Sequence record: SRR20825006_3010
Reading direction: 5' to 3' (one strand)
Length of the DNA: 36,440 nucleotides
Under the pieces are notes generated by a model, which was not told where the DNA came from, did no database searches, and saw nothing but the letters and a program-made list of their open reading frames with translations. The position numbers and the translations under genes are program-made. Below, in pieces: positions 34 through 30,363 of the stretch (within the stretch, counting starts at the first letter, position 1; each line of letters begins with the position of its first letter).

Positions 34-56
34 TGGAGGTGGCGGGAGTCGAACCC
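34..56 (-). repeat. att core, ssrA-distal copy (displaced 3' fragment of tmRNA)
   Basis: TGGAGGTGGCGGGAGTCGAACCC is identical to 30341..30363. It is followed on the minus strand by a palindrome (1..18, TGATTCCTGCAGGAATCA), probably part of the native ssrA terminator. Confidence 0.93.
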
Positions 57-205: not shown

Positions 206-224
206 TTTGGGCATTATTTGGGCA
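206..224. repeat. Probable integrase arm-type binding site pair, left arm
   Basis: TTTGGGCATTATTTGGGCA (two TTTGGGCA units) is repeated exactly at 30271..30289, inside the opposite prophage end. Confidence 0.75.
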
Positions 225-290: not shown

Positions 291-1406
291 TCAGAACTTC
301 AAGAGCAAGTCACGGGCGGCATCCGTCGCACTTGGTGCAAGGTGTGCGTACCTTTCGGTCATGGCGACTGTAGAGTGCCCGAGGAGTTGTTGCAAGACTC
401 GCATCGGCAAGCCCTTCATAGCAAGGTGAGATGCGTAAGTATGGCGCAAAATGTGCCAACCGCTTTTGTATGACGGAATCTCCGCATTGCGGTACGCGCG
501 AAGCATGGAGTGTTTCGTGTTCGCATACGTCACCAGCTCCTCGCCTTCGTTCCTGACCGTGAAGATGGGCTGCAATCCGTCCCTGGACGCGCGTGGGAGA
601 TCACACCTCAAGTCGGTCAAGGTCGTGACCAGCTCTTGTGTGATCGGAACTGTGCGCTTGTGGTGCGATTTCGGCGTCGTGTACTCACCATGCACATACG
701 CGCGCTCGATGTCGAGCTGCTTGAGGTGGGGTTTAAGATCACGCCACTGCAAGCCTGCAAGTTCACCGAATCTCATGCCCGTCTGCAAGGCCGTCATGAA
801 GAGAGGCGTGATCCAAGGTTCGGCGCATTCTACCAAGTCCTTGGCCTCCCATTGCTCCAGATAATGCCAATCGGGATCTCCAACTTTTGGGGTCTCGATG
901 ACCGGGACAACGGCGATGACCTCCCAAGCCAACGCCCTCTCGAAGATCTTGCTCAAGACCCCCGTCACATTCGAGACCGTCTTCCGGCTCAGACCTTTCC
1001 CGTCATCGGGGTCGAGAAGGTGGGCCACGAAAGCATCGATGTCAGCGCGTTCGATCTCGTGTAAGGGAGTGTCCCCGAAGGCTTCGAGCAGATGGTTATC
1101 GATGATGCGCTGGTAGTTGCTCCACGTACTCGTTTTGCAGTGTGCTTTCGCGTGATCTTGCATCCACCTCTGGCAGAACTCTTCCATGGTCGGGGAGTCC
1201 GTGATGATCACCCGACCTTCCTTTTCAGCAAGGTGCGCCTCTCGCGCCTCTGCTTCGAGCATATCGATTTGGATGCGCTCCCAACGCAGGGCGTTCTTCT
1301 TGCAGGTCATCGGGCTTTTGCGGCGGATGCGACGGCGTTCCCCCGTGTACGAGTTCGTCCACCAGAAATCGCAGTAGTAGGCGCCATTTATCATCCTGAT
1401 CGTCAT
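291..1406 (-). CDS. int: Phage tyrosine integrase
   Basis: Complete catalytic set: R (TGMRFGEL), K (TPKS), HxxR (HILRHTYAS), H (LLGHS), Y (MTERYAH), plus an N-terminal arm-binding-like region. Start placed at the ATGA overlap with the upstream stop (ORF track begins at 1433). Confidence 0.95.
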   Translation of the reverse strand: MTIRMINGAYYCDFWWTNSYTGERRRIRRKSPMTCKKNALRWERIQIDMLEAEAREAHLAEKEGRVIITDSPTMEEFCQRWMQDHAKAHCKTSTWSNYQRIIDNHLLEAFGDTPLHEIERADIDAFVAHLLDPDDGKGLSRKTVSNVTGVLSKIFERALAWEVIAVVPVIETPKVGDPDWHYLEQWEAKDLVECAEPWITPLFMTALQTGMRFGELAGLQWRDLKPHLKQLDIERAYVHGEYTTPKSHHKRTVPITQELVTTLTDLRCDLPRASRDGLQPIFTVRNEGEELVTYANTKHSMLRAYRNAEIPSYKSGWHILRHTYASHLAMKGLPMRVLQQLLGHSTVAMTERYAHLAPSATDAARDLLLKF

Positions 1407-1687
1407 CGTCCAGCCTCCCCCGTCTTGAGCCAAGCAAGGAACGGCACGACCTCGATTTTGATGCGTCTCCCGAGGCGCATGACACCGGGAGGAAGCGCGC
1501 GCTTCATGCCCTCGTACCAGGAGATGGCGTTCAGGATCGTTTTGCGGTCCACGCCGATGGCGAGCGCAAGGCTGTTGACGTCCGCGATGTCTCCCAGGGC
1601 GCGGATACTCGGGCGGAGCGGAATGCGTTTTTCGTCGGGGTCCGGCTCGCGGACGAGTTCGAGTGTGACCTTCTGCTTCTTCTCCAT
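1403..1687 (-). CDS. Xis/RDF-like small HTH DNA-binding protein
   Basis: 94 aa with an HTH-like segment (DVNSLALAIGVDRKTILNAI) and a wing (MRLGRRIKI); translationally coupled to int. Confidence 0.7.
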   Translation of the reverse strand: MEKKQKVTLELVREPDPDEKRIPLRPSIRALGDIADVNSLALAIGVDRKTILNAISWYEGMKRALPPGVMRLGRRIKIEVVPFLAWLKTGEAGR

Positions 1688-1753
1688 GTGATCTTCCTTC
1701 CTCTACTCAGTTCGTGTTCGTGTTCGTTGCGCGTTCTCGTGGTCATGGTCATC

Positions 1754-1775
1754 TTGATGATCTGAAAATCATCAA
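1754..1775. promoter_or_regulatory. Candidate operator palindrome between divergent xis and XRE genes
   Basis: TTGATGAT-CTGAAA-ATCATCAA, a perfect 8-bp inverted repeat in the 140-bp divergent intergenic gap. Confidence 0.5.
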
Positions 1776-1827
1776 AGGTTGTTCGATCATGGGGTATGAC
1801 GATCCTCGATGCAAGAGGAGGTCGAGG

Positions 1828-2055
1828 ATGAGTGACAGTCTGGAAAAGCTCTTGAGCGTGAACCTTGCCCGCATACGCATGTCTGCGGGCATGACGCAGC
1901 GTGATCTTGCAGCCGCGACGGGCATCAGCCAGGAGCACATCGCGCGCATCGAGAGCAAGGGGCGGAATGTCACCATCGGGACCATCGAGACCTTCGCCAC
2001 CGCCCTCGGTGTTGACCCCCTCGACCTCCTGGCGCCGCTCGAAGACGACTCCTAG
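1828..2055 (+). CDS. XRE/Cro-C1 family HTH transcriptional regulator (75 aa)
   Basis: NLARIRMSAGMTQRDLAAATGISQEHIARIESKGRNVTIGTIETFATALGV is a typical XRE HTH; GAGGAGG RBS before ATG 1828. Confidence 0.9.
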   Translation: MSDSLEKLLSVNLARIRMSAGMTQRDLAAATGISQEHIARIESKGRNVTIGTIETFATALGVDPLDLLAPLEDDS

Positions 2056-2180
2056 CCTCTCAACAAGACCATCCCCGCGCCTTCACCTCTCTGCTACCAC
2101 AAGGGCCAAGGGGCGTAAAAACTGACCGGGGGTAAGACGTTAAGAGGGCGGGGTTAGCACTCATGCGTGCTTCGCGCATG

Positions 2181-2211
2181 AAAAAACCCTCTCCCTTGGT
2201 CGGGGAGAGGG
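2181..2211 (-). terminator. Intrinsic terminator ending the leftward early operon
   Basis: Minus strand CCCTCTCCC-cgaccaa-GGGAGAGGG followed by TTTTTT, just after the 2239 stop. Confidence 0.8.
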
Positions 2212-2238
2212 CTGGTGTTCGTTCGGGGGGAGGTACCG

Positions 2239-2610
2239 TCACATCAGGGCGCCAGGACACACATGCTCAGGCACCTCGGGGATGATCGCGTCGTTCGCTC
2301 CCTGGAGGTCCGCCTGGGTGTCCGCGCGCTGGAGCTTGGCGAGCGTCGCGCGCGTTTCCTTCATCATGGCCTCCAGCCAGAGCATCCGGGTGTAGACGTC
2401 CATCAGCTCCCCGTAGACGCGTTCGCCCTCCTCGGTCTCCCGGAGCGATCGGGACGCGGGGGAGATGGCCTCACGCGATGCGGCGTCGAGCGCCTCCTGG
2501 ATGCGGTCAAATGCCGCGTTCAGAGTCGCCACGGTCTCGGCCAGGTCGGGCGCATCCGTGCGTGCGGGGATGGTCGTGTTGTTGTTCTCAGTGTTCTTAT
2601 CAGTGCTCAT
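2239..2610 (-). CDS. Hypothetical helical/coiled-coil phage protein
   Basis: 123-aa ORF with natural composition; last gene of the leftward operon. Confidence 0.7.
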   Translation of the reverse strand: MSTDKNTENNNTTIPARTDAPDLAETVATLNAAFDRIQEALDAASREAISPASRSLRETEEGERVYGELMDVYTRMLWLEAMMKETRATLAKLQRADTQADLQGANDAIIPEVPEHVCPGALM

Positions 2611-2689
2611 GTCTATCTCGCTTTGCCTATCAAGGCGGTGATCTCTGGGGAGGAGAAAAAGTTCGTGTTATTGTTCGTGTTCGTCCGGG

Positions 2690-3211
2690 TCAGAAAAGCT
2701 CTCTCAACGCCTCCAGCAAGGTCTCGACCTCTGCCTCCAGATCACTCACGCGCACCAGCGCGTCCACCTGCTCGCTCGACCATTCACCCACGCCATCACG
2801 GGCAATGGACGCGCCTTCGTTCGCGAGGACGGCCAGAGGGCGCTGTAGGGCCGTGAGCTGGTCACGGAGACCCACGAGGCGGTACCTCCTTTGGTCGGTG
2901 CGCTCTGTGCGGTCCAGGAGTGCGCGCTCAGGGTGATGCAGCGTAAGCTCGACGCGGGGGAAATCGGCACTGTGTCCTTCGCTGGTGACCCAACCCGACC
3001 ATCCCCCGGGGGACGGCCCCTCACGTTCCGTTCGTGCCGCACGCCGGTGTGCTTCCACGGCGGCATTGATTCGCAGGCCCAATTCATCCCAGCTTCCACC
3101 ACGCGGGACGGAGATGGACTGGTAGCCCGTGTCAGTGCCGAAGCCGATGGTGATGTCGGTGGTGTGTGGGGATGGTTGGTCGGGGTTCCTGAAAGCGTTA
3201 ATGAGCGGCAT
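2690..3211 (-). CDS. Hypothetical phage protein with C-terminal coiled coil
   Basis: Start MPLINAF overlaps the upstream stop (GTGATG); purine-rich RBS. Confidence 0.65.
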   Translation of the reverse strand: MPLINAFRNPDQPSPHTTDITIGFGTDTGYQSISVPRGGSWDELGLRINAAVEAHRRAARTEREGPSPGGWSGWVTSEGHSADFPRVELTLHHPERALLDRTERTDQRRYRLVGLRDQLTALQRPLAVLANEGASIARDGVGEWSSEQVDALVRVSDLEAEVETLLEALRELF

Positions 3212-4212
3212 CACTTCCCCTCCCCTTCCAAGATCTCTGCGGCCATGGCCACGACCTCCGAAGCCACCTTCTCTCCAGCCACCAACGCGGTGCGGGGCGG
3301 TGGAGTCTTCGCGGCGTTCTGCGTGGCGAGCGTGATCATTTTCATCCACCCCTTGGACCGCTTGCCCATTCGCATCCGGGACGGGAGCGCCCACACGGTG
3401 GTCATCGCGCCAACCTCGACCGGAGAGGTCGAGGCGGTGATGACGTTCCTGTCAATGTACGTGGCGATACCAGAGCGCGTTTTCACATAGACGGCGCCTC
3501 CCGTCTTGGTCTCGCGGACGATCGAGAGATCCTCGATGCGGACCGCGCGTTCAGGTTCGATGCGACCACTCATGCCGCGATAGGTCTCGGGCCACGAGAC
3601 CTGAAGCATCGTGCCCCTGCCAAGGTCGTCCCAAGGCAAGCCGCCGTTCGCTTCCTCATGCCACGCGTCTCGGGGGATGCTGACCCCCCATCGGCCATCC
3701 ACAGAGGCGAAGATCAAGCGGGCCTCATCGACGCCGCCCTTAACCCCTGGGTGTCCGAGACAGACCGCTGTCATGCGCCACACGGGGCGGCTGCGGTGCC
3801 TCCACACAAAGGGGGCGTGATCATCCCAGGTAAGCGCGTCGGTCAAGGAGGTGTGGGAGGTCTCTTCTTGGACCGGCGCAACATCTTCCTCTTGAACGGG
3901 AGGGGTATGAGCCTCCATCAAGGTCTCGAAGGTCTCCTCTTCGCCCTCTTCGTTCGTCGAGTCAGGATCACCGATGGTCTCCAAGACATCCTCGATGGTC
4001 GTCTCACAAGCACCACGCGCTTGTGCGAAGGTGTCACGGGCGAGATGGCCAAGAAGGCGGTCCTCCATGGCAGTGAGGCGCGCATCCATCGCAGCCATGA
4101 CGCGCGCACAAAGACGATCAAGGAGCTGGTCCTCCTCTACATGCGCAGCAGTTGGAGGATGGGCTGGCGGGGAAGTTGGATCATCATCGAAACCAAAAAA
4201 ATCCTGGCTCAT
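3211..4212 (-). CDS. Hypothetical early protein (acidic N-terminus, beta-rich C-terminal domain)
   Basis: Likely start MSQDFFGF at 4212, directly after the structured leader; coupled to the next gene. Confidence 0.7.
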   Translation of the reverse strand: MSQDFFGFDDDPTSPPAHPPTAAHVEEDQLLDRLCARVMAAMDARLTAMEDRLLGHLARDTFAQARGACETTIEDVLETIGDPDSTNEEGEEETFETLMEAHTPPVQEEDVAPVQEETSHTSLTDALTWDDHAPFVWRHRSRPVWRMTAVCLGHPGVKGGVDEARLIFASVDGRWGVSIPRDAWHEEANGGLPWDDLGRGTMLQVSWPETYRGMSGRIEPERAVRIEDLSIVRETKTGGAVYVKTRSGIATYIDRNVITASTSPVEVGAMTTVWALPSRMRMGKRSKGWMKMITLATQNAAKTPPPRTALVAGEKVASEVVAMAAEILEGEGK

Positions 4213-4231
4213 AAAAACGCTCTCTGGCAAA

Positions 4232-4560
4232 GCAAAGGGCGGCTGTAAAAGATGGCTCAAACCGGCGCTCAAAGCGCCCCATCCGTCACAGCCGCCCTCG
4301 CGGCACTCCCTCAACACCCCCAGCGGTTAAGCTCATGTGAGAGGGATCTTGAATGTCTTTGAATCGCGGTGGTTTGAGGAACCGCGATGGTGAACCGCGC
4401 CGCCCAGGGGTCGAATCCTGAGCGGCTTTGCGGTTCGGTCGGCGCGGATTCGACCCCGCGCCTGTGTTTGAGGGGTGGTGACCCCGAGCGGGCAGCCCAG
4501 GACGCCTCAGTTTAGATGCGTCCCGTCCTCTCCGCTCGATGCCCCCGCCGCCCCGGCGTG
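4232..4560 (-). ncRNA. Structured leader / candidate C4- or CI-like regulatory RNA system
   Basis: At least five GC-rich stem-loops (4236-4298, 4363-4388, 4392-4436, 4441-4462, 4485-4538) with mutually complementary loops. A 4404/4421 mismatch becomes a G-U pair only on the minus strand. Confidence 0.6.
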
Positions 4561-4569
4561 CTACATATA

Positions 4570-4597
4570 ATCTTAAACATAGATGGATCACCGTCAA
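4570..4597 (-). promoter_or_regulatory. Sigma70-type leftward early promoter
   Basis: Minus strand TTGACG-16 nt-TAAGAT; start near 4562, at the head of the structured leader. Confidence 0.6.
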
Positions 4598-4682
4598 GGG
4601 CACCAAAGACCACGATCACCCGCATGAAGCCTAACCCAACACCCTTAATCGTTACCACACGATAAAGAACCGTAAAGGGAAT

Positions 4683-4712
4683 CCTCGTTCTGAGATCCAG
4701 AACGGGGTTTTT
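4683..4712 (+). terminator. Rightward intrinsic terminator
   Basis: CCTCGTTCTG-agatc-CAGAACGGGG (one G-U pair) followed by TTTTT. Confidence 0.6.
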
Positions 4713-5203
4713 GGCGAAAGAGAGGACGCGCAAAGGTCAACAAGATACACACATTTGGATGCTAAAATTTTCTTGAAAAAAAGTTCATTCGAGGTCTTTT
4801 TTCTGCTCGCGCGGGTCTCGGACATGCCCATCAAGGAACCTCCCCGGACCATCCCCGAGCACGGACCCGGACCTTGAACGCGACTGTCCCGAGATCTTCG
4901 AGATCTCACTTTTTCGACCCAGGACGACCAGACCTCACAGAAGCCACGGAGAGCGACAGAAATCCCCCGAGGCACCACTGACCCTCAGAAAGAAATCCGT
5001 GGCGTCTCCGTGGCGCACAGAGGGCCTCCTGTTCAAATTCGTGATCTCATCCGTGATCGGGATGCGATCAGGTTCGAGGTGGTTCGAGGGATGCTCCGAG
5101 GAGTCCCCTTGTCAGCGTCCCCTCACCCGTCCGAGCACCGACACCCCGAACACCGCCCGCGCTCTCGCGCGCGCGTACGCGTATCATGTGCTCCGACCCC
5201 GCC

Positions 5204-5552
5204 ACCCGCTTCGCGGGCGTCGAGGCCGTCGATCCCTCGCGCGTACGTAGTAGGGTATTCCATGTTCTTGTTCCCCTATGCGACTCCCCTAAGCCATCGA
5301 AGCGGAGCGAAGATGGCGTGATGTCGGGAAAATCATGACCATGAAGACATGACCCATGGGGTCATCCAAAAGAATCCCTACAGGCATAAAAAGTCGAGCC
5401 CCCGAAGGGGGCGAACAAAACCCTACTACGTACGCACGCGTTAGCACGTTCCGTGCCAGCATGAAAAAATAGTTGTTTGAGAGGGGTGATTTTCCCGACT
5501 AACACGCTAACTTCGCTCCGCTTCGTTAGCTTAGGGAAGAGCCGCATAGGGG
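5204..5552. repeat. Paired inverted-repeat/hairpin modules (candidate replication origin)
   Basis: A 16-bp perfect inverted repeat (5241-5256 / 5420-5435) and a ~65-bp imperfect inverted repeat (5273-5335 / 5487-5552), each copy of the latter with an internal hairpin; GAA-triloop hairpins on opposite strands. The repeats are observed directly; the origin function is inference. Confidence 0.7.
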
Positions 5553-5868
5553 GTAGTTTGAAAGGGGGTATGTGCAAGGGCGCGCTACGCGCGCGACGTA
5601 GGGATCACGTAGGGAGCACGCCGGGAGCAGCGGGGATTCATCAGCGGTCCCTGGATTTTCATGTTCCGGGATGAGGTCGATGTTCGGGATGACAGGATGA
5701 CAGGACCGAGGATCGGTCCTTGATGGGATATGGGATGGAAGGATGAAAGGGGAGCTTGATGAGGGTGATGACCTTGGTGGGAATGTCCGAGGTCGGAAGG
5801 ACGTCGAGATGACCTTGATGGGAACGTCCCTCACACTCCCCCGGCGCCAGCCGGGGGATGGTTCCTGT

Positions 5869-6123
5869 TCATGCCTGTGCGAGATCCTCGAATCGGAAGA
5901 CCGGCAACGCATCCACCGCCTTCTCTTCCTTGGGAGGCAGGAACACTCCGGGCGCACCTTCGACCATCACACGCCACACAAGGGCACGGGGATCTGTGAT
6001 CTTCGGGTACGTTCGTTGGAGCAGTTCCATCTCCCTCTCGGTCAGCGTGACGGTGGTCGTGACCGTACGGTGAGAGGAGGATGCGTGATCTTGGGAGTGT
6101 TCCTTGTTCGTCTTCGTGGTCAT
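5869..6123 (-). CDS. Small protein with RHH/CopG-like N-terminal pattern
   Basis: Alternating beta strand VTTTVTLT followed by helix EREMELLQ; an extended -10 (TGGTATAAT, 6167-6175 minus) lies upstream. Confidence 0.5.
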   Translation of the reverse strand: MTTKTNKEHSQDHASSSHRTVTTTVTLTEREMELLQRTYPKITDPRALVWRVMVEGAPGVFLPPKEEKAVDALPVFRFEDLAQA

Positions 6124-6204
6124 GATGCGGTCTCGTAGTCGTGCTCCGGGGAGGGAGATGACCCGCATTATACCACGGGGAGACGGTCAAGAAAAGCGGT
6201 TAGG

Positions 6205-6822
6205 TTATGAACACTGCTCTATGGCAGGTGTGAGGATAAGACAGTGCTCAACGAACTCCCTCTTCGCTGCTGCCGTTATGTTCGCGCTGATAGCTTTTTC
6301 AAAAAGCATCTTCAACTCTTGGGCATAGTCTTCTGCCTTGTGGGTCGCGGCATCGAGACAGGGAATTGCTTTCTCGTGGGTCGAAGCAGCGGCGGCTTTC
6401 TTGTATCCCTCCTTCTCAAGAACATCCAACCAGTCATCGATTACATCCTTACGAGCAGGAGGGTTCTTGCTCTTCGACTTGCTTGGTGCAAGATCCCAAG
6501 TCATCAGCACCTTGCCCATCTTCTTCTCTTCCTTCTTCTTCTTCTTCGCCGCCATCCGAGCCTGTACTTCCTCCCTGGAAAGAAGCCTCACGGGAGGGTC
6601 AAGGGCTGCCAAAGCATGCCTCACAATGTCCTCATTCGATCCTCCGGCCTTACCTGAAACCAACTGCTCGCCGTCTTCGGTCATCACAGACCACTCTCGA
6701 TCCCTTACGGCGTTGGTCTTAATCTTCACGATGAGGATGCTCCCATCATCGACGTTGACAGAGACCTCAGCACCCACCATGTCCCCGTGCTCAGCAACTA
6801 TCCACCCTGTTCGCCCTGACAT
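6205..6822 (-). CDS. Hypothetical protein (Lys-rich linker)
   Basis: 205-aa ORF with a purine-rich GAGGAGAG leader; moron-like composition. Confidence 0.7.
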   Translation of the reverse strand: MSGRTGWIVAEHGDMVGAEVSVNVDDGSILIVKIKTNAVRDREWSVMTEDGEQLVSGKAGGSNEDIVRHALAALDPPVRLLSREEVQARMAAKKKKKEEKKMGKVLMTWDLAPSKSKSKNPPARKDVIDDWLDVLEKEGYKKAAAASTHEKAIPCLDAATHKAEDYAQELKMLFEKAISANITAAAKREFVEHCLILTPAIEQCS

Positions 6823-7042
6823 CCTTCTCTCCTCTCCTCATCCCGACGAAAACCCCACACAACCGCACCACGCGCCCGTGAACCGCCCTCGCCTCATCAT
6901 TGTGATCTTGCTTGTTCGCTTTGCGCACCCACCATCACTCTGCAAGACATCCCTCGTCAAGAGCATCCCTCTCACGGTTCGATAATGTCTCTATCTCCCG
7001 TGTGTCCGTCACGCCCTCCCCGGCATTACACGGAGACACGAG

Positions 7043-8029
7043 ATGTCACGAACACCCCCCAAAGCGGGCGTCCATTGGTCGCCCGAAGAGATCGAGATCC
7101 TCACCCGGCTTTATCCGCGCGCACCATGGGATGACCTCCTGGAAGCCCTCCCCGGTCGCACTTACGCCGCTATCGCGCGGCAAGCCCACAAGCGCCGGAT
7201 TCGACGTGTAGGGCACCATCCCCGGACCACCCCGCGCCACCGTCCCTCACGCCCTCCAGGGATGCACGAGCGCAACGATCACGAGGTCGTGTGTGACCCC
7301 GAGACGGGCGTCGCTCTGTTCGCTGAGATCATCCTCCCGACCCGCGACGGCACCGAGCGAGCGCGGACCCGCGTGGACATGTGCGACCTCCGACCCTTGC
7401 TCGAAATGGGACGGTGGACGCTCCTCACGCAGACCCATTGCGACCAGGAGTATGCGTACACGAAGGGTGGCCCTGGCCAGCCCCGGACGATTCTCATGCA
7501 TCGCATAGTCCTTGGCCGCGTTCGTGGGCAGGCTCTCAGGTCGCCACGAGGGGATGGGGAAGAAAGAATGGTGGTCGATCACCGTGATGGAGACGGCCTC
7601 AACAACACGCGGGACAACCTCGCCTTGATCACGCAGTCGCAAAATCTAAGAAAATCAAAACCTTACCGCCGTCGTACCTCAGACCAAATCGGCCTCCCAG
7701 AGGGCGTCCGCAGGGAGTTCTCCCGCATCGTCGCCATCGCCAGCATTGACCGGCGCGGCGTCTCCATCACCCGTATAGACCCTCGTGATCATGAGAGTGA
7801 GGATGCGGCCATCGCCTTGGCCGCCTGCATCCGTCAGAGCGTTCAGGAGCTTATCCACGGGCCGGGGGCTATCGGTGTTGATGCCGAGTATGCTTGGCGT
7901 GATCTGGTGAGTGAGGAAGAGGCTGTGAGGTGGGCGGTGCAAGCGTTGGAGACACGGGCGCGGTATAAGCTGCCGATGCGGGAGAGGTATGTGGCGCGGC
8001 TTGAGGAGTTGAGGGGGATGATGGGTTAG
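7043..8029 (+). CDS. HNH endonuclease with N-terminal Myb/SANT-like DNA-binding segment
   Basis: HNH core LMHRIVLG...VVDHRDGDGLNNTRDNLALITQSQN; N-terminal WSPEEIEILTRLYP...LPGRTYAAI; GGAG RBS. Confidence 0.85.
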   Translation: MSRTPPKAGVHWSPEEIEILTRLYPRAPWDDLLEALPGRTYAAIARQAHKRRIRRVGHHPRTTPRHRPSRPPGMHERNDHEVVCDPETGVALFAEIILPTRDGTERARTRVDMCDLRPLLEMGRWTLLTQTHCDQEYAYTKGGPGQPRTILMHRIVLGRVRGQALRSPRGDGEERMVVDHRDGDGLNNTRDNLALITQSQNLRKSKPYRRRTSDQIGLPEGVRREFSRIVAIASIDRRGVSITRIDPRDHESEDAAIALAACIRQSVQELIHGPGAIGVDAEYAWRDLVSEEEAVRWAVQALETRARYKLPMRERYVARLEELRGMMG

Positions 8030-9081
8030 GCTTCTTCTTTTGGGTCAGCAATCGCATCCAACATCCACGCTTGCATCTCCTCTTCTGTCATGCCTTCAAG
8101 CATCGTGCCCTTCGAGAGTGTAAAGAGCATCCCCTTGAACTCCACTCGAACCCTCTCGAACTCCTCTTCCAACTGCTCGCTCACGATCTGCAAGGCCCCT
8201 TTGCGTCCCTCGTCATCCAATGAGTCCCAATCTCTTCGTACCTCTGCCAGCGCATCTGTTACCAGTGAGGTAATTTCTTTCGCGCGTCGGAACATCAGGA
8301 AGATAGATGCTGCTGCGTGGGACATCACGGCTTCACTGAGCTTCTCCACTCTTTCGACATGCGCCAGCCGGGTGTCCCTACTCTCGCTTTGGCGTCTCAG
8401 GTCTTCGATCTCGCCATTCCACTTCTTGATCAGATCTTGCATCGCCCACCTGAACACGATGGTGGTCGCTAGAAAAGAGAGGAAGCTGCCCAATATCGTT
8501 CCCCAGAAGACGTGCAGCCAGTTGATGGGAGGCGACTCGACCTCCACCACCCCTGCATCTTTCTGTCCGGTCACTCGGATGCGCTCAGTCGCCACACTCT
8601 CCACAGACGCATCAGACCATACTGTGAGGTACACTTGGTCTTGTGCACGGATAGGCTCGAACTGGATGCCTTCTGCTGAAACATCAACAACCTCGATGTC
8701 CTTCTTCCGAGGGTACTTGATGTGTGCCATCCCCTCGAAAGGGAATTGGAGACCAACCCCTTTCAGCTCCTCTCCCTTGGCATACGTGACTGTAACCTCC
8801 CACACAGACTTGTAGGCCGAAGAAGGATCTGAGGACTTGTGAGGTGCGCCACGCACAACAGCCTCAACCGTCTCAGGCGCCTTTAGGGCTTCGTTGACCT
8901 GACTCCCAATTACGCCGAAGATGGCAGCGAAGACCGCACCACAGAACGTGATAATGATCCCAGCCTCGACTTTGTTGTCAGAGGCCCACAAGAAAAAACG
9001 CTCGACCGCACCCTTCTTCTTGGACTTGCTCTCCTGGGGTGGTTGAGGTGCCTTCACGACTTCAGTCTCTTCATCCGACAT
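8026..9081 (-). CDS. Moron membrane protein (2 TM segments, extracytoplasmic beta domain, C-terminal coiled coil)
   Basis: Hydrophobic stretches GIIITFCGAVFAAIFGVIG and VFWGTILGSFLSFLATTIVF; opposite orientation to flanking phage genes; GGAGG RBS. Confidence 0.75.
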   Translation of the reverse strand: MSDEETEVVKAPQPPQESKSKKKGAVERFFLWASDNKVEAGIIITFCGAVFAAIFGVIGSQVNEALKAPETVEAVVRGAPHKSSDPSSAYKSVWEVTVTYAKGEELKGVGLQFPFEGMAHIKYPRKKDIEVVDVSAEGIQFEPIRAQDQVYLTVWSDASVESVATERIRVTGQKDAGVVEVESPPINWLHVFWGTILGSFLSFLATTIVFRWAMQDLIKKWNGEIEDLRRQSESRDTRLAHVERVEKLSEAVMSHAAASIFLMFRRAKEITSLVTDALAEVRRDWDSLDDEGRKGALQIVSEQLEEEFERVRVEFKGMLFTLSKGTMLEGMTEEEMQAWMLDAIADPKEEA

Positions 9082-9808
9082 CGGTCACCTCCTCGCCCCA
9101 AAGGTTCTCCGGCACCTTTGCAGGGTCGATGAACAAGTCTTCTAGCTCCGTAGGACCGAAGCATGTTTCCACGAACTCATACTCGTCCTCAAAGTTCACA
9201 GGTGGCCCGTTCATCGCTTCAGAAAGGTGCCTCAAGTACGCGGTTCTCCCCACCTCCTTGAGGTTAGACACACAAGACACATCCTCCTTGACTGCCTTCA
9301 TGTATTTAAGCTCAAGATGGATATGGAATGCCCACCTTTGGTTATAGCAGTTTGCGATACCATGCTCCTGCAACACACGCGCATACAACGCTCCCGCGCT
9401 GTGGCTGGATACCTGAACCGACCCCCTTTGTTGTACGAGGTACAGGATTGCAGCTTTCAACTCAGGCTCTAGCATCACCAGCTTGTCATACACCTTCTTC
9501 TTGGCCGCCTCTTCAGCCTTCTTCTTTCCTCGGGCGTCCCACTTCGCACTCCCCCAAGACATGAGCATGATTGCCACCAAGATCACGCAGCCGAGAAATA
9601 TCCACTCGACCACCTCCTGATTCTCACTGGCTCGCTTGAATGCCTTGTACTTGTCTGCCAGCTCAGGACGGGCTTGCATCCCCCAAAGCAATGCTCCAGC
9701 CACCACCGTCGAGACGATCACCACTCGCTTGAATTGCTGCGCAACCTTCGAGTTTTCAGCCAGCTCCACCAGCGTCTTCAAAGCCCCCGCAATCTTGGCC
9801 GCGTCCAT
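9071..9808 (-). CDS. SieB-like (superinfection exclusion B) membrane protein
   Basis: Two N-terminal TM helices, a Lys-rich linker, then KLVMLEPELKAAILYL...ARVLQEHGIA, resembling the SieB winged-helix pattern. GGAGG RBS before ATG 9808. Confidence 0.55.
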   Translation of the reverse strand: MDAAKIAGALKTLVELAENSKVAQQFKRVVIVSTVVAGALLWGMQARPELADKYKAFKRASENQEVVEWIFLGCVILVAIMLMSWGSAKWDARGKKKAEEAAKKKVYDKLVMLEPELKAAILYLVQQRGSVQVSSHSAGALYARVLQEHGIANCYNQRWAFHIHLELKYMKAVKEDVSCVSNLKEVGRTAYLRHLSEAMNGPPVNFEDEYEFVETCFGPTELEDLFIDPAKVPENLWGEEVTDVG

Positions 9809-9966
9809 CTGCACCTCCATATCTTCTTGATGCTCTCCCTCTCTCCAGATCCAACACACCCTACCTGCCCCGTCAAGACCCAAACCTGATCGCCATACGA
9901 TCACGGTTTTCTCTCTATATCCCACACCTTGTGAGCACTCGTATGACCACCTCACAAGGCCACCTC

Positions 9967-10500
9967 ATGTCTTCGGACGAACACAACCAAGATCACGCTC
10001 CTCACCCATGGGACCGGCGCGAAGACGAGACCGACAAGAGCTGGCATGCCTTCACGCTCTACCGGGACATGTCGCCTCATGAGCGCAGCCTCTTCGCGGT
10101 GTCTGAGGTCTTGTACGGGAACGGGGATGAGGACGGCGAAACCGGAAAGGAACCGGGTAAAAACCGGGTAAGAACGCCGCCCTCTTGGGTCTCCGAGTGG
10201 TCATCGAAGTACGCCTGGGTCGAGCGCGCTCGTGCCCATGATGATCACATCGCGGAACAAACTCGCCGCCTCAAGGTGGCCGCCCGCGTTCGAGCAGAGC
10301 GCGTGATCTGGGATGCTCTCGAAGGGTTGGCTTCCAAGGCCGTCGAGAAGGCATTGGCCGGAGACACCACGCTACTCCGTGATCTCCTCGACCGAGGTGA
10401 GGTTGGGTCTCCGACGCGTGTCGCGCACAGCATCAACTCAGGAGACGACGCACGCGCCTTGTTCGGCCTCTCCCCTCTCAAGGATGGGGAAGACGAATGA
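9967..10500 (+). CDS. terS: Terminase small subunit (putative)
   Basis: PWDRREDETDKSWHAFTLYRDM...WSSKYAWVERARAHD pattern typical of a TerS group; stop overlaps the TerL start. Alternative start at 9943. Confidence 0.75.
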   Translation: MSSDEHNQDHAPHPWDRREDETDKSWHAFTLYRDMSPHERSLFAVSEVLYGNGDEDGETGKEPGKNRVRTPPSWVSEWSSKYAWVERARAHDDHIAEQTRRLKVAARVRAERVIWDALEGLASKAVEKALAGDTTLLRDLLDRGEVGSPTRVAHSINSGDDARALFGLSPLKDGEDE

Positions 10501-11846
10501 CGGGCATCCTCGATGATCTCCTGCTCCCTTATCAGAAGGCATGGCTCGATGACCGCTCCAAGAGGCGCATCTGGCTCAAGGGAAGACAGCAAGGCGCGAC
10601 ATGGGCAGGAATCGCCCTCGATGCCCTTCTGGACGCGCTCGACTTCCCCCACGATGTCTATGTCCTTTCGTACCGCCTCGACTCCGCAAAAGAGGTGCTC
10701 CAGGACGTGGCGTGGTGGGCGACCCGCCTGGAGGCATTAGGCGTTCACATCGGCGCAGAAATCACTGCAACGAAGATCACGATCGGCAATGGTTCGCGCA
10801 TCATTGCCATGCCTGCAAAAGCCGAGAGCGTGAGGGGACGTAGGGGCAGCGTTTACATTGATGAGGCTGCCATCATCCCGCGCGCTTTCGACCTGTGGCA
10901 AGCGGTGTATCCGGTTCTGAGCAGTGATGCCCGTTACCGGATCTCGATGGTCTCGACCCCCATGATGGCATCGGGACTCTTCTATGACGTGTGGGAACAG
11001 GGAGAGGGCTGGAGCCGTCACCGTGTCACTCTTCATGAGGCGGTCGCACAGGGCCTTGATAGGGATGTTGACGACTTGCTCTCTCAATCGAGGCACCCCG
11101 AGCAGGAGTATTTGTGTCTGTTCGGAACGGGCGGCACGTATCTCTCGCTTGACCGTCTCCTCTCCCTCCAGCTCGAAGACAACACCTCTCCCCTCCCCCC
11201 ACACGCCCTTTATCTCGGTGTGGACCTGGGCAAAGTCTCGGACTTCACCGCCATCGTGCTTCTACGTGTCTTCGATGACGCCTCCCGACCCCCCGAGGTC
11301 ATCGAGACCCGTCTGGTCAAAGCATTGGACTATCACGAACAGAGACGCCTCCTAACCGACCTGATCACCGCCCTCGACCCAAGGCGCGTCCTTCTGGATA
11401 GCACTGCACATGCCCCTCTGGTCGATGAAGTCAGGGCCGCGTTGCCCCAGGACATGCGGTCAAGGGTGTCCGGTCATCACGCGACGCACGGGTGGAAGAA
11501 GTCTTCGGTCGAGGGGCTTCGAGATCGCATTGAATCGAAAGAAAGTGCCAACTCGATTCGGTTTTCTTTCGATAAAACCCATGTGTGGGACGCCAGTGCA
11601 AGGCGGTGGTGCGACCACGGTTCGCGCGTGCTTCTGGATGATTTGGCGAGGGTCGAGCAAGTCCAGACCCCGAGTGGAAAGATCACCTATGAGGTGAAGC
11701 GCAAGGCTGGCAAGGGTCACGGAGACGCCTTCAGTGCCCTCCTGCTCGCCCTGGAAGCGGCTTCCCGCCCCGTGGGCAGTCACCCTTTCAAGGCAAAACG
11801 GAAGGACAACACACGAAGATCAAGGCGTCCTAGCCTGACTTTTTGA
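10497..11846 (+). CDS. terL: Terminase large subunit, Mu gp28-like
   Basis: LLPYQKAW Q-motif; KGRQQGATW variant Walker A; VYIDEAA Walker B; STP coupling motif; nuclease LGVDLG...DFT and HGDAFSAL. Confidence 0.93.
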   Translation: MTGILDDLLLPYQKAWLDDRSKRRIWLKGRQQGATWAGIALDALLDALDFPHDVYVLSYRLDSAKEVLQDVAWWATRLEALGVHIGAEITATKITIGNGSRIIAMPAKAESVRGRRGSVYIDEAAIIPRAFDLWQAVYPVLSSDARYRISMVSTPMMASGLFYDVWEQGEGWSRHRVTLHEAVAQGLDRDVDDLLSQSRHPEQEYLCLFGTGGTYLSLDRLLSLQLEDNTSPLPPHALYLGVDLGKVSDFTAIVLLRVFDDASRPPEVIETRLVKALDYHEQRRLLTDLITALDPRRVLLDSTAHAPLVDEVRAALPQDMRSRVSGHHATHGWKKSSVEGLRDRIESKESANSIRFSFDKTHVWDASARRWCDHGSRVLLDDLARVEQVQTPSGKITYEVKRKAGKGHGDAFSALLLALEAASRPVGSHPFKAKRKDNTRRSRRPSLTF

Positions 11847-11858
11847 TGAGAGAGAACG

Positions 11859-13310
11859 ATGCTCAATGACATGATCACATACGCGGAAGCGTGGGCCTCA
11901 GATGCCATCGACATCGCGCCGACATACGAGCGTGACAGCCTCGTGATCGTCCCTCGTGAGGTGTCTCTCTCAGACGAACAGGATGGCCCTCTCCGCTTGG
12001 AGGAATCGGGTTGGGACGGCACGTACTACATCAGGGGACGGCGCCACGCCAGCAACGACCACCCCGAATTTGACCGGCCCATCATCGCCAGAGGTCTCGG
12101 GAGTGATCTCGGTGTCCTCGAAGAGCTTTACAAGACCTCACCCCAGTACCGTCGCGCCGTCCTCACAATCGCTCAAGGCGTCGAGACGGCCATCTGGGGG
12201 GTGTCTGCATGTAAGACGTGCCCCGACAACCTTACTCCATTCCATGAGGTCCAGCGCGCTTTTGTCGAGTCCACATACAACAGCCTGGAGGGAGGCTTTA
12301 GAGCCTTTCTTCACGAGGCGGTCCGAGGTCTCTTGGTCGCCGGATTCGCGGTCTTCCAGCGCGTGGACCGGGAGGATGGGAGCGTCCGCAAACTCGCCTA
12401 CCGTCGAAGCAACACCATCTCCCGATGGATTCTGAACGAGCGCGAGACCGATTTGATTGCGGTCGAATTTCGAGACATGCATGGGGGGTATTACATCGTC
12501 CCATCCGAGCACCTTCTCATCATCAGCTTTGATGCTGTCGGGCTGGATTTCGAGGGCTTGAGTCCCCTCCGAACCGCCGCGCCTTATATCCGCGCAAAGC
12601 AACTTTTGCTTCAGCTCCAGATGTCAGCCCAGGAGAAGTACGCCAGCCCCATCATCTGGATCGAAGACGAGCAAGGCGACACCTCAGACGCGGAACGTTT
12701 CGTCAATATTTTCGACAGCATGTCTGCAACCGACTTCGCATGTATCACGGGGCGCAAAGGGCAAAAAGCTACCATCCTTCACCCAAGCTCTTCGATGCCC
12801 GATTACGAGCCTAAGCTGCGCTACCTCGATGAGCAGATACTTTTACCTCTTTCGAGTGAAGGTGCCCTCATCGGCACACAAGACCACGGAAGCTATGCGC
12901 TTTCTGAGGTGAAAGATTCCCAACACATGCGGGTCGCGATTTACATCGCGCAAATCATTCAGGATGCCCTGCACGGGGCCAACAACACGCCTTACACGGG
13001 CGTCACAAAAGCCATCATTGACCACGCTTTTGGCGGACCAATTCACCCCGGAGCATATCCGCAGATGTCCTTCTCCTTGGGCGAGGAAGAAGTCCCTCTC
13101 TCCGACATCCTGAGCGCCGCACAAGCCGGTCTCATCGAGGTCACACCCGAGGTCCAGGCACACGTCATGGAGAGGCTCAAGCTCCCTGTATCGACCTCGA
13201 CAGCATCCCCTGAGATGCGTCGTGAAGGCTCGAATGATGACCGAGAGGAAGCATCGAATGATGATGCAGAAGACATCGAACAAGATAGCATGAGTGAGGC
13301 CACGGCATGA
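11859..13310 (+). CDS. Portal protein (Mu gp29/DUF935-like)
   Basis: 483 aa directly after TerL; motifs GFAVFQ, EGLSPLR, EKYASP and GSYALSEV resemble Mu-type portals. Confidence 0.85.
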   Translation: MLNDMITYAEAWASDAIDIAPTYERDSLVIVPREVSLSDEQDGPLRLEESGWDGTYYIRGRRHASNDHPEFDRPIIARGLGSDLGVLEELYKTSPQYRRAVLTIAQGVETAIWGVSACKTCPDNLTPFHEVQRAFVESTYNSLEGGFRAFLHEAVRGLLVAGFAVFQRVDREDGSVRKLAYRRSNTISRWILNERETDLIAVEFRDMHGGYYIVPSEHLLIISFDAVGLDFEGLSPLRTAAPYIRAKQLLLQLQMSAQEKYASPIIWIEDEQGDTSDAERFVNIFDSMSATDFACITGRKGQKATILHPSSSMPDYEPKLRYLDEQILLPLSSEGALIGTQDHGSYALSEVKDSQHMRVAIYIAQIIQDALHGANNTPYTGVTKAIIDHAFGGPIHPGAYPQMSFSLGEEEVPLSDILSAAQAGLIEVTPEVQAHVMERLKLPVSTSTASPEMRREGSNDDREEASNDDAEDIEQDSMSEATA

Positions 13311-14389: not shown

Positions 14390-14487
14390 CGCCCCTTTTT
14401 TGAGCAACCACACGTTCACCGATCGGTCTAACCCTTCGGTCAAAACATAACTCAAGCGGTCGATTGACCGCTTATTCGCACAACTTC

Positions 14488-14503
14488 CGGTGATCTTTCG
14501 ATA
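14488..14503 (+). promoter_or_regulatory. Late-gene motif copy 1, CGGTGATCTTTCGATA
   Basis: Exact 16-mer also at 17753 and 28227; all three are intergenic and upstream of structural genes. Confidence 0.7.
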
Positions 14504-14551
14504 TATCCATCCATTGGAGACCCGAGAAGAACACCTCAAAGGAGAACTCAT

Positions 14552-14923: not shown

Positions 14924-15032
14924 GCGCCTGCATAAGCGACCGTCTGACAGCATAGCAACGAACACATAAGACAACCAACAAAGATCACGCCCTCTGCTGT
15001 ATGCAATCGAGGGCATATAAAGGAGGCCACTC

Positions 15033-30270: not shown

Positions 30271-30289
30271 TTTGGGCATTATTTGGGCA
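30271..30289. repeat. Probable integrase arm-type binding site pair, right arm
   Basis: Identical to 206..224. Confidence 0.75.
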
Positions 30290-30337: not shown

Positions 30338-30340
30338 CAA

Positions 30341-30363
30341 TGGAGGTGGCGGGAGTCGAACCC
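30341..30363 (-). repeat. att core within the reconstituted ssrA 3' end
   Basis: 23-bp identity to 34..56, covering the T-loop and acceptor 3' strand. Confidence 0.93.

What the first reader, a model, noticed from the sequence alone, without database searches (positions are those of the whole stretch)
4232..4560. 350-nt early leader built from hairpins with matched complementary loops: candidate RNA-based immunity or attenuation switch
Seen: a leftward promoter (TTGACG-16-TAAGAT, 4570-4597) is followed by five stem-loops before the first gene at 4212. The loops pair in two sets. (i) Loop GGUCGAAU (4448-4455) is the exact complement of loop AUUCGACC (4409-4416), extending to 12 nt with flanks. 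(ii) The single-stranded GGUUUGAG (4256-4263), inside a ~70-nt branched stem (4236-4298), is the exact complement of CUCAAACC in the loop of hairpin 4363-4388. A second CUCAAA site at 4467-4472 can pair with UUUGAG at the small loop (4268-4273) or with GUGUUGAGGG near 4308-4317. A G-U pair supports the minus strand as the RNA. Known: phage P4 (CI RNA with seqA/B/C) and P1/P7 (C4 RNA with a/b targets) control early operons through a small RNA cut from the leader that pairs via loops and bulges with the same transcript. Inference: this may be an analogous, possibly new, two-pair RNA switch in a Myxococcota-like prophage.
Basis: partly seen in the sequence, partly recalled or inferred. Interest (0 to 1): 0.8.

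Follow-up and report, generated by a model that had tools for sequence, protein, structure and literature searches.

The report
Structured prophage leader RNA, matched loops
A 330-base untranslated stretch in front of the first gene of a prophage's leftward operon folds into five very stable hairpins whose exposed loops match each other far more than chance allows, so it is probably a new regulatory RNA, but its function has not been tested.

Summary
On the minus strand, 4563-4213 folds into five robust hairpins: H1 4546-4477, H2 4462-4441, H3 4436-4392, H4 4388-4363 and H6 4299-4235. Pair probabilities are 0.94-1.00 and the fold z-score is -6.5. Both 8-nt loop matches sit at the stated coordinates. 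Together they never arose in 3000 loop permutations or 400 shuffle-and-refold controls.

The element lies in a ~30.3-kb prophage inserted in the tmRNA gene. It follows a sigma70-like promoter and ends 23 nt before an orphan gene whose start codon is conserved. G-U pairs (8 versus 2) and hairpin energies favour the minus strand. No reading frame there looks coding.

Short contigs from all 4 other sequencing runs examined carry the leader at 90-100% identity. The adjacent gene reached only 84-87%, in 2 of those 4 runs.

It matches no Rfam family, including C4, and is not a tRNA or tmRNA. No homologous locus could be fetched, so covariation could not be tested. No RNA data exist.

Best reading (about 0.4): a leader-embedded attenuator and antisense device that works like P4 CI, P1 C4 or IsrK without belonging to those families. 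Rivals are a stand-alone structured RNA and a DNA-level origin or protein-site cluster.

The parts
4570..4597 (-). Sigma70-like promoter: -35 TTGACG at 4597-4592, 16-nt spacer, -10 TAAGAT at 4575-4570. The inferred start of transcription is near 4563.
   Evidence: the only promoter-like site in 3800-5400, 9 of 12 consensus matches. This is a consensus match only. Contigs of runs X5 and X2 extend across it.
4477..4546 (-). H1, a long imperfect hairpin. The lower stem is 4538-4532/4491-4485 and the upper stem 4525-4518/4505-4498. Its 3' edge carries GGUCACCA at 4483-4476.
   Evidence: -40.9 kcal/mol on the minus strand against -29.3 on the plus strand; pair probabilities 0.94-1.00. GKTCACCA motif.
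4466..4472 (-). Single-stranded CUCAAAC ('site 1') between H1 and H2. It is complementary to GUUUGAG in the H6 bulge. In extended form (CCCUCAAACAC) it pairs with GUGUUGAGGG at 4317-4308.
   Evidence: Unpaired probability 0.63.
4441..4462 (-). H2: 7-bp G+C stem GGCGCGG/CCGCGCC with loop GGUCGAAU at 4455-4448.
   Evidence: pair probability 1.00, -15.3 kcal/mol.
4388..4436 (-). H3, a minihelix. A 7-bp lower stem GAACCGC/GCGGUUC, an AAA bulge and a 10-bp upper stem carry the loop AUUCGACC at 4416-4409. It is followed directly by ACCA at 4391-4388, which resembles a tRNA acceptor end.
   Evidence: pair probability 1.00, -31.0 kcal/mol. In the whole window, 20 of 609 RCCA sites abut a stem of 7 bp or more, so the ACCA feature is only suggestive.
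4363..4388 (-). H4: 8-bp stem with a 10-nt loop containing CUCAAACC at 4378-4371.
   Evidence: pair probability 0.94, loop unpaired probability 0.98.
4300..4362 (-). Weakly structured spacer (H5 region). It contains GUGUUGAGGG at 4317-4308 and an unsupported 16-codon ORF, AUG 4336-4334 to UGA 4288-4286, that ends inside the 5' arm of H6.
   Evidence: Read. The same frame is printed. There is no Shine-Dalgarno-like sequence before this AUG (read).
4235..4299 (-). H6, a branched hairpin. P6a has 14 bp, P6b 6 bp, and the apical hairpin P6c is GGCGCU-UUG-AGCGCC. An 8-nt bulge GGUUUGAG lies at 4263-4256.
   Evidence: -43.8 kcal/mol on the minus strand against -37.7 on the plus strand; pair probabilities 0.97-0.99; bulge unpaired probability 1.00.
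4229..4236 (-). U-rich tail UUUGCUUU directly after the G+C stem of H6, which makes H6 look like an intrinsic terminator.
   Evidence: Read. The scan tool did not call it.
3211..4212 (-). First gene after the leader, 333 aa, an orphan. A weak AGAGAG Shine-Dalgarno-like sequence lies at 4225-4220 and the AUG at 4212-4210.
   Evidence: The start MSQDFF is shared with P0002. No family was found in Pfam, PHROGs, PADLOC or NCBIfam. There were 3 relatives among 5.8 billion clusters and 1 among 1.84 billion representatives.

Best explanation
The region is the untranslated leader of a leftward prophage transcript that starts near 4563. It runs towards an orphan gene, two or three further small genes and the integrase.

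The RNA folds as it is made into hairpins H1-H4. It ends in H6, a very stable branched hairpin followed by UUUGCUUU, 23 nt before the start codon. I read H6 as an attenuator.

Proposed mechanism (inferred, not shown):
1. The exposed GGUUUGAG bulge of H6 pairs with the CUCAAAC(C) sites made earlier in the same transcript, the H4 loop and site 1.
2. Whether that pairing happens in cis, or is pre-empted in trans by accumulated leader fragments that carry H6, decides whether the terminator closes.
3. That in turn decides whether RNA polymerase reads into the operon.
4. H3 is a 7-bp stem followed by ACCA, the shape of a hairpin-type RNase P substrate. It could be released as a second small RNA whose loop matches the H2 loop.

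Such a device would give self-limiting, sequence-specific control of the operon. It works like P4 CI RNA with seqA/seqC, P1 C4 RNA, or Gifsy-1 IsrK, without being homologous to them.

Shown: the fold, the exposed complementary loops, the strand bias, the absence of coding signal, and conservation in other runs. Inferred: transcription, termination at H6, processing, and any regulatory effect.
For: - Fold: z -6.54 on the minus strand. Sliding windows show that 4200-4575 stands out from its neighbours.
- Hairpins: pair probabilities 0.94-1.00 and loops 0.78-1.00 unpaired.
- Loop matches: 8 nt plus 6-8 nt. The joint event occurred in 0 of 3000 loop permutations and 0 of 400 shuffles with refolding.
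- Selection on loops: only the loops plus two closing pairs are shared between H2 and the reverse complement of H3, while the stems differ (read). That argues for selection on the loops and against a recent inverted duplication.
- Strand: 8 G-U pairs on the minus strand against 2 on the plus strand. Four of the five robust hairpins are more stable on the minus strand.
- Position: a promoter-like site lies just upstream. A minus-strand terminator at 5412-5398 lies further upstream, so this promoter would be the source of the leader.
- Non-coding: no codon signal, no protein relatives of the 106-aa ORF, and no Pfam match for it.
- Conservation, leader: all 4 runs laid carry leader pieces. X2 has 152 of 152 identical bases at 4264-4415. 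X4 has 151 of 151 at 4260-4410. X3 has 9 changes and 1 gap in 305 bases. X5 has 7 changes and 1 gap in 153 bases.
- Conservation, gene: the gene was covered in 2 of the 4 runs at about 84-87%. Its N-terminal part, roughly 4070-4204, was covered in none of the 4.
- Precedent: CI RNA pairs with seqA and seqC upstream and downstream in the same leader (PMC4825925, passages). CI, C4, M3 and 4.5S RNAs are hairpin-type RNase P substrates (PMC5499578, passage). The 3' RCCA pairs with RNase P RNA (PMC4919922, passage).
- Not a plain two-state switch: forcing the 12-bp helix between the H2 and H3 loops costs 16.7 kcal/mol (-32.5 against -49.2). The loops can therefore only kiss or act between molecules.
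Against: - There is no expression evidence of any kind.
- The promoter is a consensus match, with 1 found against 0.5 expected.
- H6 was not called as a terminator by the scan, and its tail is interrupted by G and C.
- No homologous locus was obtained, so no stem or loop-loop covariation could be tested. The positions of the variants seen were not printed for the leader.
- The leader contigs are short (151-358 nt) and low-depth. They may come from a different phage variant than the coding contigs of the same run, so the contrast in conservation is soft.
- Neither complementary set overlaps the ribosome-binding site or start codon of the gene.
- A stem of 7 bp or more next to RCCA occurs by chance at 20 of 609 sites in the window.
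- The prophage encodes a Cro/CI-type HTH protein.
- CCTCRAAC-like motifs also occur upstream at 5072-5089, which fits a DNA-binding motif as well.
Confidence: 0.4

Rival explanations
1. A stand-alone structured non-coding RNA of about 330 nt, running from the promoter to H6 as its own terminator. Its job would not be to regulate the downstream gene. The loop matches would be tertiary or intermolecular contacts, for example head-to-tail multimers through the H2 and H3 loops, or a scaffold for a protein such as the orphan gp333.
For: - The region has promoter, structured-RNA and terminator-like architecture.
- The whole stretch is conserved, not only short sites.
- H2 and H3 are separated by only 4 nt. 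By A-form helix geometry their loops probably cannot reach each other within one molecule, which favours pairing between molecules. This is my inference.
- The 12-bp alternative helix is 16.7 kcal/mol worse than the two hairpins.
- X3 and X4 showed the leader without detectable gp333 at 80% identity or more.
Against: - It matches none of 4227 Rfam families.
- Its position 23 nt upstream of a gene in the same orientation is typical of a leader.
- There are no expression data.
- A missing gene in short-contig data proves nothing.
Confidence: 0.2
2. A DNA-level element, part of a replication origin or a protein-binding control region. The hairpins would act as single-stranded DNA signals presented on both strands, like the inverted ssi sites of RSF1010-type origins (recalled). 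Alternatively, the repeated CTCAAAC and GGTCGAATCC motifs are binding sites used in both orientations.
For: - The leader borders about 1.65 kb without coding signal, 4213-5868.
- That region holds iteron-like repeats: TCCCAYCAAGG three times at 5718-5823, plus an inverted copy at 4826-4836. The window holds 6 sites with one mismatch or fewer against 0.83 expected.
- It also holds an A+T-rich stretch at 4745-4810 and a 280-nt palindrome.
- The identical loop GGTCGAAT is presented once on each strand.
- Four of the 8 CCTCRAAC sites in the window lie in 4372-5089, all in one orientation.
Against: - Strand asymmetry of G-U pairs (8 against 2) and of hairpin energy.
- The long stems H1, H3 and H6 are not explained by short binding motifs.
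- A promoter-like site sits exactly upstream.
- No replication initiator, primase or helicase was recognised in the prophage. This argument is weak because the early genes are orphans.
Confidence: 0.2
3. Translation-coupled attenuation. A ribosome translating the 16-codon leader ORF (AUG 4336-4334, UGA 4288-4286) would stop inside the 5' arm of H6, hold the terminator open and allow read-through.
For: The ORF ends within P6a of H6 (read). The same frame is printed.
Against: - No Shine-Dalgarno-like sequence precedes this AUG.
- The AUG lies in a partly paired region.
- There is no codon signal.
- No conservation information is available, because the covering contigs are identical.
Confidence: 0.05
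4. Functionless G+C-rich palindromes, such as remnants of repeats or insulating terminators, with loop matches that arose by chance or by duplication.
For: No function is shown. H2 read on the plus strand scores as terminator-like.
Against: - Chance is excluded at about 1 in 1000 or lower.
- The stems differ while the loops match.
- The element is single-copy in the window.
- Depth in other runs is not raised, 2-4 against 5.7 for the gene.
- The leader is 90-100% identical in 4 of 4 runs.
Confidence: 0.05

Closest known systems
Satellite phage P4 immunity: CI RNA with seqA and seqC (placed in Rfam's C4 family, recalled)
   Same: - The small RNA lies inside an untranslated leader of an early operon.
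- It is complementary to sites elsewhere in the same transcript. The outcome in P4 is premature termination (PMC4825925, passage).
- CI RNA is a hairpin-type RNase P substrate (PMC5499578, passage). H3 here is a 7-bp stem plus ACCA.
   Different: - No sequence or structure match in Rfam at E up to 10.
- There are two independent complementary sets here, not one.
- Both CUCAAAC targets lie upstream of the candidate antisense element H6.
- Processing and termination are not shown.
- The phage is unrelated: the best match to its large terminase among 50,697 phage records was below 31% identity.
P1/P7 C4 antisense RNA with its a/b target sites in the immI operon (details recalled; Hartmann 1995 seen only as a reference entry)
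   Same: The antisense RNA and its targets are co-transcribed from one promoter. Pairing goes through exposed loops. The 5' end is made by RNase P.
   Different: In P1 the downstream target covers the ribosome-binding site of icd (recalled). Here no complementary set overlaps the start region of the gene. There is no Rfam C4, c4-a1b1 or c4-2 match.
Gifsy-1 IsrK
   Same: A promoter-proximal prophage small RNA whose terminator is partly read through. The short form acts in trans on the long form of the same transcript (PMC4825925, abstract and passages).
   Different: IsrK activates translation of a downstream small ORF. No such target is evident here, and there is no homology.
Lambda pL leader: nutL plus the RNase III-sensitive hairpin before N (recalled)
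   Same: It is the first element of a leftward early operon that ends at the integrase, with a long stable hairpin just upstream of the first gene's ribosome-binding site.
   Different: No boxA or boxB was recognised, and no N-like protein was identified. This comparison is untested.
phi29 prohead RNA and plasmid kissing-loop antisense RNAs such as ColE1 RNA I / RNA II (recalled)
   Same: Function depends on loop-loop pairing between hairpins, between molecules in the case of pRNA.
   Different: The genomic context differs: those act in packaging or in replication control from the opposite strand. Here both loops are on one transcript, and there is no homology.

Membership tests
Rfam C4 antisense RNA families (C4, c4-a1b1, c4-2) | A match to the covariance model | tested here: not met
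   cmscan of the whole window at gathering score found only the tmRNA. At E up to 10, 4000-5000 gave 3 matches and 4100-6300 gave 6. All were unrelated families far below their gathering scores, and none was a C4-type family.
Leader-embedded antisense control of the P4 CI / P1 C4 type (functional class) | An untranslated leader behind a promoter, upstream of a phage early operon | tested here: met
   Promoter-like site, no coding signal, conserved gene start at 4212, prophage context. This holds at sequence level only.
Leader-embedded antisense control of the P4 CI / P1 C4 type (functional class) | A stable hairpin RNA that exposes sequences complementary to other sites of the same transcript | tested here: met
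   The structure is predicted, and the complementarity is beyond chance.
Leader-embedded antisense control of the P4 CI / P1 C4 type (functional class) | A small RNA released by processing (RNase P) that accumulates | not testable with these tools
   H3 is a 7-bp stem plus ACCA, but 20 of 609 RCCA sites in the window have such a stem. No RNA run holds the stretch.
Leader-embedded antisense control of the P4 CI / P1 C4 type (functional class) | Pairing causes termination or blocks the ribosome-binding site of the downstream gene | tested here: inconclusive
   One target partner lies inside the terminator-like H6. Neither set overlaps the Shine-Dalgarno-like sequence or the AUG. The effect itself is untested.
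Intrinsic terminator / attenuator | A G+C-rich stem followed directly by a U tract | tested here: inconclusive
   The H6 stem (-43.8 kcal/mol) is followed by UUUGCUUU. The scan tool did not list it.
tRNA / tmRNA, including permuted tmRNA | Cloverleaf or tRNA-like domain with a tag reading frame | tested here: not met
   ARAGORN at default settings found only the genuine tmRNA at 30341-30730. At relaxed thresholds it gave poor models with weak stems and unidentified tags.
Type III toxin-antitoxin (ToxI-like RNA repeats before a toxin gene) | A tandem array of 34-36-nt repeats before the gene (repeat length recalled), and a toxin family match | tested here: not met
   No tandem repeat in 4213-4563. 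No PADLOC or Pfam match for the gene.
IscB/IsrB omega RNA (HEARO) | An Rfam HEARO match and a RuvC/HNH protein downstream | tested here: not met
   No Rfam match. No Pfam domain in gp333.
Dispersed palindromic repeat (REP/MITE-like) | Many copies per genome | tested here: inconclusive
   The element is single-copy in the window. Depth of the leader contigs is not raised in 4 runs. No whole genome is held.

The most novel reading that the evidence does not exclude
The leader is an RNA-only control module with two orthogonal 'address' pairs, GGUCGAAU/AUUCGACC and GGUUUGAG/CUCAAACC. It is cut into stable hairpin RNAs, a tRNA-like minihelix ending in ACCA and the branched H6. These act between molecules on nascent copies of the same leader, or assemble into multimers through loops that cannot meet within one molecule. 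That would be a new family of phage regulatory or self-assembling RNA, in a marine prophage lineage with no cultured relatives.
Probability: 0.15. Interest if true: 0.8.

Novelty: new variant of a known kind. Interest (0 to 1): 0.5.

Why it matters
RNA-based control of phage early operons, in which a small RNA cut from a leader acts on that same leader, is known from only a few enterobacterial elements: P4, P1/P7 and Gifsy-1.

An unrelated leader with two separate, statistically solid loop-loop matches would suggest that this logic evolved independently and is more widespread. This one sits in an uncultured marine prophage whose early genes are all orphans.

It would also give a compact natural example of two orthogonal kissing pairs. 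The region is better conserved than the surrounding genes, which makes it a good target for covariation analysis once the related contigs can be read.

Tried and rejected
- Homologous loci, sought and not found:
  - blastn against phages and plasmids gave no match.
  - tblastn of gp333 against phages gave none.
  - Protein-guided scans of viral, metagenome and genome contigs confirmed no relative.
  - The loop pattern GGGGTCGAATCC-N15-45-GGATTCGACCCC gave 0 hits in viral and genome contigs.
  - Three exact 22-24-mers from the leader gave 0 hits in viral contigs.
  - A 20-mer in metagenome contigs gave one chance hit inside a coding region, L001.
- Distant phage loci: terminase and integrase scans gave only distant loci, L002 at 27% identity and L003-L069 at 25-43%. 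blastn of the leader against all 69 loci found only the L001 20-mer.
- Sequencing runs: no RNA holder was listed.
- gp333 function: the AlphaFold model had pLDDT 44.7, so no fold search was run. Atlas hits scored 0.86 or less, with no family. The exhaustive HMMER search returned only its own cluster representative.
- tRNA or permuted tmRNA: rejected.
- att-site remnant: rejected. The att repeats are at 34-56 and 30341-30363, and the leader does not share them.
- Secondary-structure switch between H2+H3 and a 12-bp helix: rejected on energy.
- Pairing between a possible plus-strand RNA (4577-4712) and the leader: -87.4 kcal/mol against shuffles of -77.1 with sd 4.8. The method is unsuitable for long sequences, so I dropped this.
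- Literature: a search for the tmRNA tag ANDNVELALAA found 0 papers. Hartmann 1995 (PMC41593) is not held. Supplementary files were not consulted.

Full report
**Setting**

The window holds a prophage of about 30.3 kb inserted into the 3' end of the tmRNA gene. ARAGORN and Rfam find the tmRNA at 30338/30341-30730 on the minus strand. Its last 23 bases, TGGAGGTGGCGGGAGTCGAACCC, recur at 34-56, which marks the two attachment sites.

A tyrosine integrase lies at 291-1433 on the minus strand. The large terminase, portal and major head protein lie at 10497-15947 on the plus strand. A Cro/CI-type HTH protein is encoded at 1714-2055 on the plus strand.

By a codon model trained on the window's long genes, genes from about 9955 down to 291 run leftward. 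The stretch 4213-5868 shows no coding signal in any frame. None of its 13 small ORFs tested has a Pfam match.

**The observation**

Read on the minus strand, the region starts behind TTGACG-16-TAAGAT at 4597-4570. This was the only promoter-like site the scan found in 3800-5400. One site against 0.5 expected is not significant alone.

The 361 nt from 4565 to 4205 fold to -188.3 kcal/mol with z -6.54, and 0 of 100 shuffles fold as well. The plus strand gives -171 kcal/mol and z -4.94. In sliding 150-nt windows across 3900-6374, the interval 4200-4574 stands out, with z from -3.0 to -5.0 in three of its four windows.

Five hairpins are robust, with mean pair probabilities of 0.94-1.00:
- H1, 4546-4477
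- H2, 4462-4441
- H3, 4436-4392
- H4, 4388-4363
- H6, 4299-4235

The interval 4362-4300 is only weakly structured.

**The loop matches**

All are at the stated places.
- The H2 loop GGUCGAAU (4455-4448) and the H3 loop AUUCGACC (4416-4409) belong to a perfect 12-nt inverted repeat (I13).
- The H4 loop CUCAAACC (4378-4371) matches the 8-nt bulge GGUUUGAG (4263-4256) of H6.
- A third CUCAAAC lies single-stranded at 4472-4466. Three of the six CTCAAAC sites in the 36-kb window fall in 4256-4472.

I tested chance in two ways.
- Permuting the unpaired bases within the fixed structure gave a match of 8 or more in 0.1% of 3000 trials.
- Dinucleotide shuffling with refolding gave it in 0.25% of 400 trials.
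- A match of 8 together with a second match of 6 never occurred in either control.

The stems of H2 and H3 are unrelated, and only the loops plus two closing pairs are shared. The match is therefore not a leftover of an inverted duplication.

**Which strand, RNA or DNA**

The five robust hairpins contain 8 G-U pairs on the minus strand and 2 on the plus strand. Four of the five are more stable on the minus strand, for example H1 at -40.9 against -29.3 and H6 at -43.8 against -37.7 kcal/mol. A count of 8 against 2 gives a one-sided binomial probability of about 0.055 by my arithmetic, which is supportive but not decisive.

A minus-strand terminator at 5412-5398 lies upstream. Leftward transcripts from further up probably stop there, and the promoter at 4597 would be the leader's own.

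The 106-aa ORF 4286-4606 that spans the leader has negative codon scores, no relative in the protein collection and no Pfam match.

**Anatomy that bears on mechanism**

H6 has a 14-bp and a 6-bp stem, an apical hairpin and the 8-nt bulge. It is followed directly by UUUGCUUU at 4236-4229. Then come a weak AGAGAG at 4225-4220 and the AUG at 4212. I read H6 as terminator-like. The scan tool did not list it.

H3 has a 7-bp lower stem, an AAA bulge and a 10-bp upper stem, followed by ACCA at 4391-4388. That is the geometry of an acceptor end. Literature passages show that P4 CI RNA, P1/P7 C4 RNA, phi80 M3 RNA and 4.5S RNA are hairpin-type RNase P substrates (PMC5499578). They also show that the 3' RCCA pairs with RNase P RNA (PMC4919922).

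The ACCA feature is only suggestive. In this window, 20 of 609 RCCA sites abut a stem of 7 bp or more. The motif GKTCACCA occurs six times in the window, two of them at the 3' edges of H1 and H3.

Forcing the H2 and H3 loops into a 12-bp helix costs 16.7 kcal/mol, so this is not a simple two-state fold. H2 and H3 are joined by only 4 nt. From helix geometry I infer that their loops cannot kiss within one molecule and would act between molecules. The H4 loop and the H6 bulge are 63 nt apart and could pair in cis.

**Conservation**

No homologous locus could be fetched from phage, plasmid, viral, genome or metagenome collections.

The downstream gene has only 3 relatives among 5.8 billion protein clusters and one among 1.84 billion representatives. 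One relative also starts MSQDFF, which fixes the start at 4212.

One run holds the whole 2-kb stretch and is probably the source. Seven others hold small shares. I laid four of them, and all four carry leader pieces:

| Run | Interval | Result |
|---|---|---|
| X2 | 4264-4415 | 152 of 152 identical |
| X4 | 4260-4410 | 151 of 151 identical |
| X3 | 4274-4578 | 9 changes, 1 gap |
| X5 | 4445-4597 | 7 changes, 1 gap |
| X2 | 4401-4767 | 26 changes, 12 gaps |

The gene was covered in two runs only. X2 had 80 changes and 7 gaps in 668 bases, and X5 had 19 changes and 21 gaps in 257 bases. The gene's N-terminal part, roughly 4070-4204, was covered in none.

The leader is thus the best-conserved part of this stretch, with caveats. 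The contigs are short and low-depth. They may come from different phage variants in one run. The table did not print where the leader's variants lie, so covariation remains untested.

**Family membership**

Rfam gave nothing at gathering score except the tmRNA. At E up to 10 there were only unrelated matches far below threshold and no C4-type family.

ARAGORN at relaxed thresholds gave only poor tRNA and permuted-tmRNA models. There are no tandem repeats. No defence-system or other family matched the neighbouring genes.

**Reading**

The best-supported explanation is a functional, leftward-transcribed leader RNA that attenuates or gates expression of the operon. Its exposed loop pairs serve as the control contacts. 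The layout parallels P4, where CI RNA pairs with seqA and seqC in the same leader and causes premature termination. It also parallels IsrK, where the short terminated form acts in trans on the read-through form (PMC4825925, passages).

My specific model is inference. The H6 bulge is either captured in cis by the CUCAAAC(C) sites, or those sites are blocked in trans by accumulated H6-bearing fragments, and this decides termination at H6.

A real rival is a DNA-level role. The leader adjoins 1.65 kb of non-coding DNA with iteron-like repeats, an A+T-rich stretch, and CCTCRAAC motifs that extend upstream of the leader. The same loop sequence is displayed on both strands. Strand asymmetry and the long stems argue against this rival but do not exclude it.

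**Verdict**

Noticed in passing
window 34-56 and 30341-30363; tmRNA 30338-30730 (-): A 23-nt direct repeat equal to the tmRNA 3' end marks the two ends of a ~30.3-kb prophage integrated in ssrA. The tmRNA tag peptide is ANDNVELALAA.
   Followed up: yes
window 206-224 and 30271-30289: A 19-nt direct repeat, TTTGGGCATTATTTGGGCA, lies just inside both prophage ends. These may be integrase arm-type sites.
   Followed up: no
window 4213-5868: About 1.65 kb of prophage DNA has no coding signal in any frame and no Pfam match for any of its small ORFs. That is unusually long for a phage.
   Followed up: partly
window 5273-5552: A roughly 280-nt palindromic element has arms of about 65 nt that are 86-100% complementary. 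Folded with its flanks (5225-5560), the minus strand reaches z -9.4. The arms enclose about 150 nt that contain a minus-strand intrinsic terminator, GCCCCCTTCGGGGGC plus a T run, at 5412-5398. It could be MITE-like or an invertible-segment-like structure.
   Followed up: partly
window 5718-5829 and 4826-4836: The iteron- or operator-like motif TCCCAYCAAGG occurs three times in direct orientation, within 22-nt repeats spaced 41-54 bp apart. One inverted copy lies about 880 bp away, just upstream of the leader promoter region. The window holds 6 sites with one mismatch or fewer against 0.83 expected.
   Followed up: partly
window 4565-4570 (+) and 4683-4712 (+): A perfect TATAAT on the plus strand lies back to back with the leader's -10 but has no -35 element. 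A good plus-strand intrinsic terminator follows at 4683-4707 with TTTTT. Together they could define a divergent RNA of about 135 nt.
   Followed up: partly
window 6167-6175 (-) and 5869-6168 (-): An extended -10-like TGGTATAAT precedes a 99-aa orphan ORF. The nearby TTGACC is only 12 nt from the -10, so the scan did not call a promoter.
   Followed up: partly
window 7043-8029 (+): An HNH endonuclease gene (Pfam HNH_3, PHROG and PADLOC homing-endonuclease models) sits on the opposite strand within the block of leftward genes.
   Followed up: no
window 1714-2055 (+): A Cro/CI-type HTH_3 protein of 113 aa is encoded opposite to the leftward operon, near the integrase. It is a candidate prophage repressor.
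   Followed up: partly
window 5071-5089: A tandem CCTCGAACCA repeat (two copies) resembles the H4 loop and stem sequence CCTCAAACCACC. The CCTCRAAC motif is enriched in 4372-5089, with 4 of the window's 8 sites, all on the minus strand.
   Followed up: partly
window 291-9955: Nearly all early-region proteins of this prophage are orphans. Apart from the integrase, the HNH protein and the HTH protein, none has a match in Pfam, PHROGs, PADLOC or NCBIfam. The closest large terminase among 50,697 phage records is below 31% identical.
   Followed up: partly
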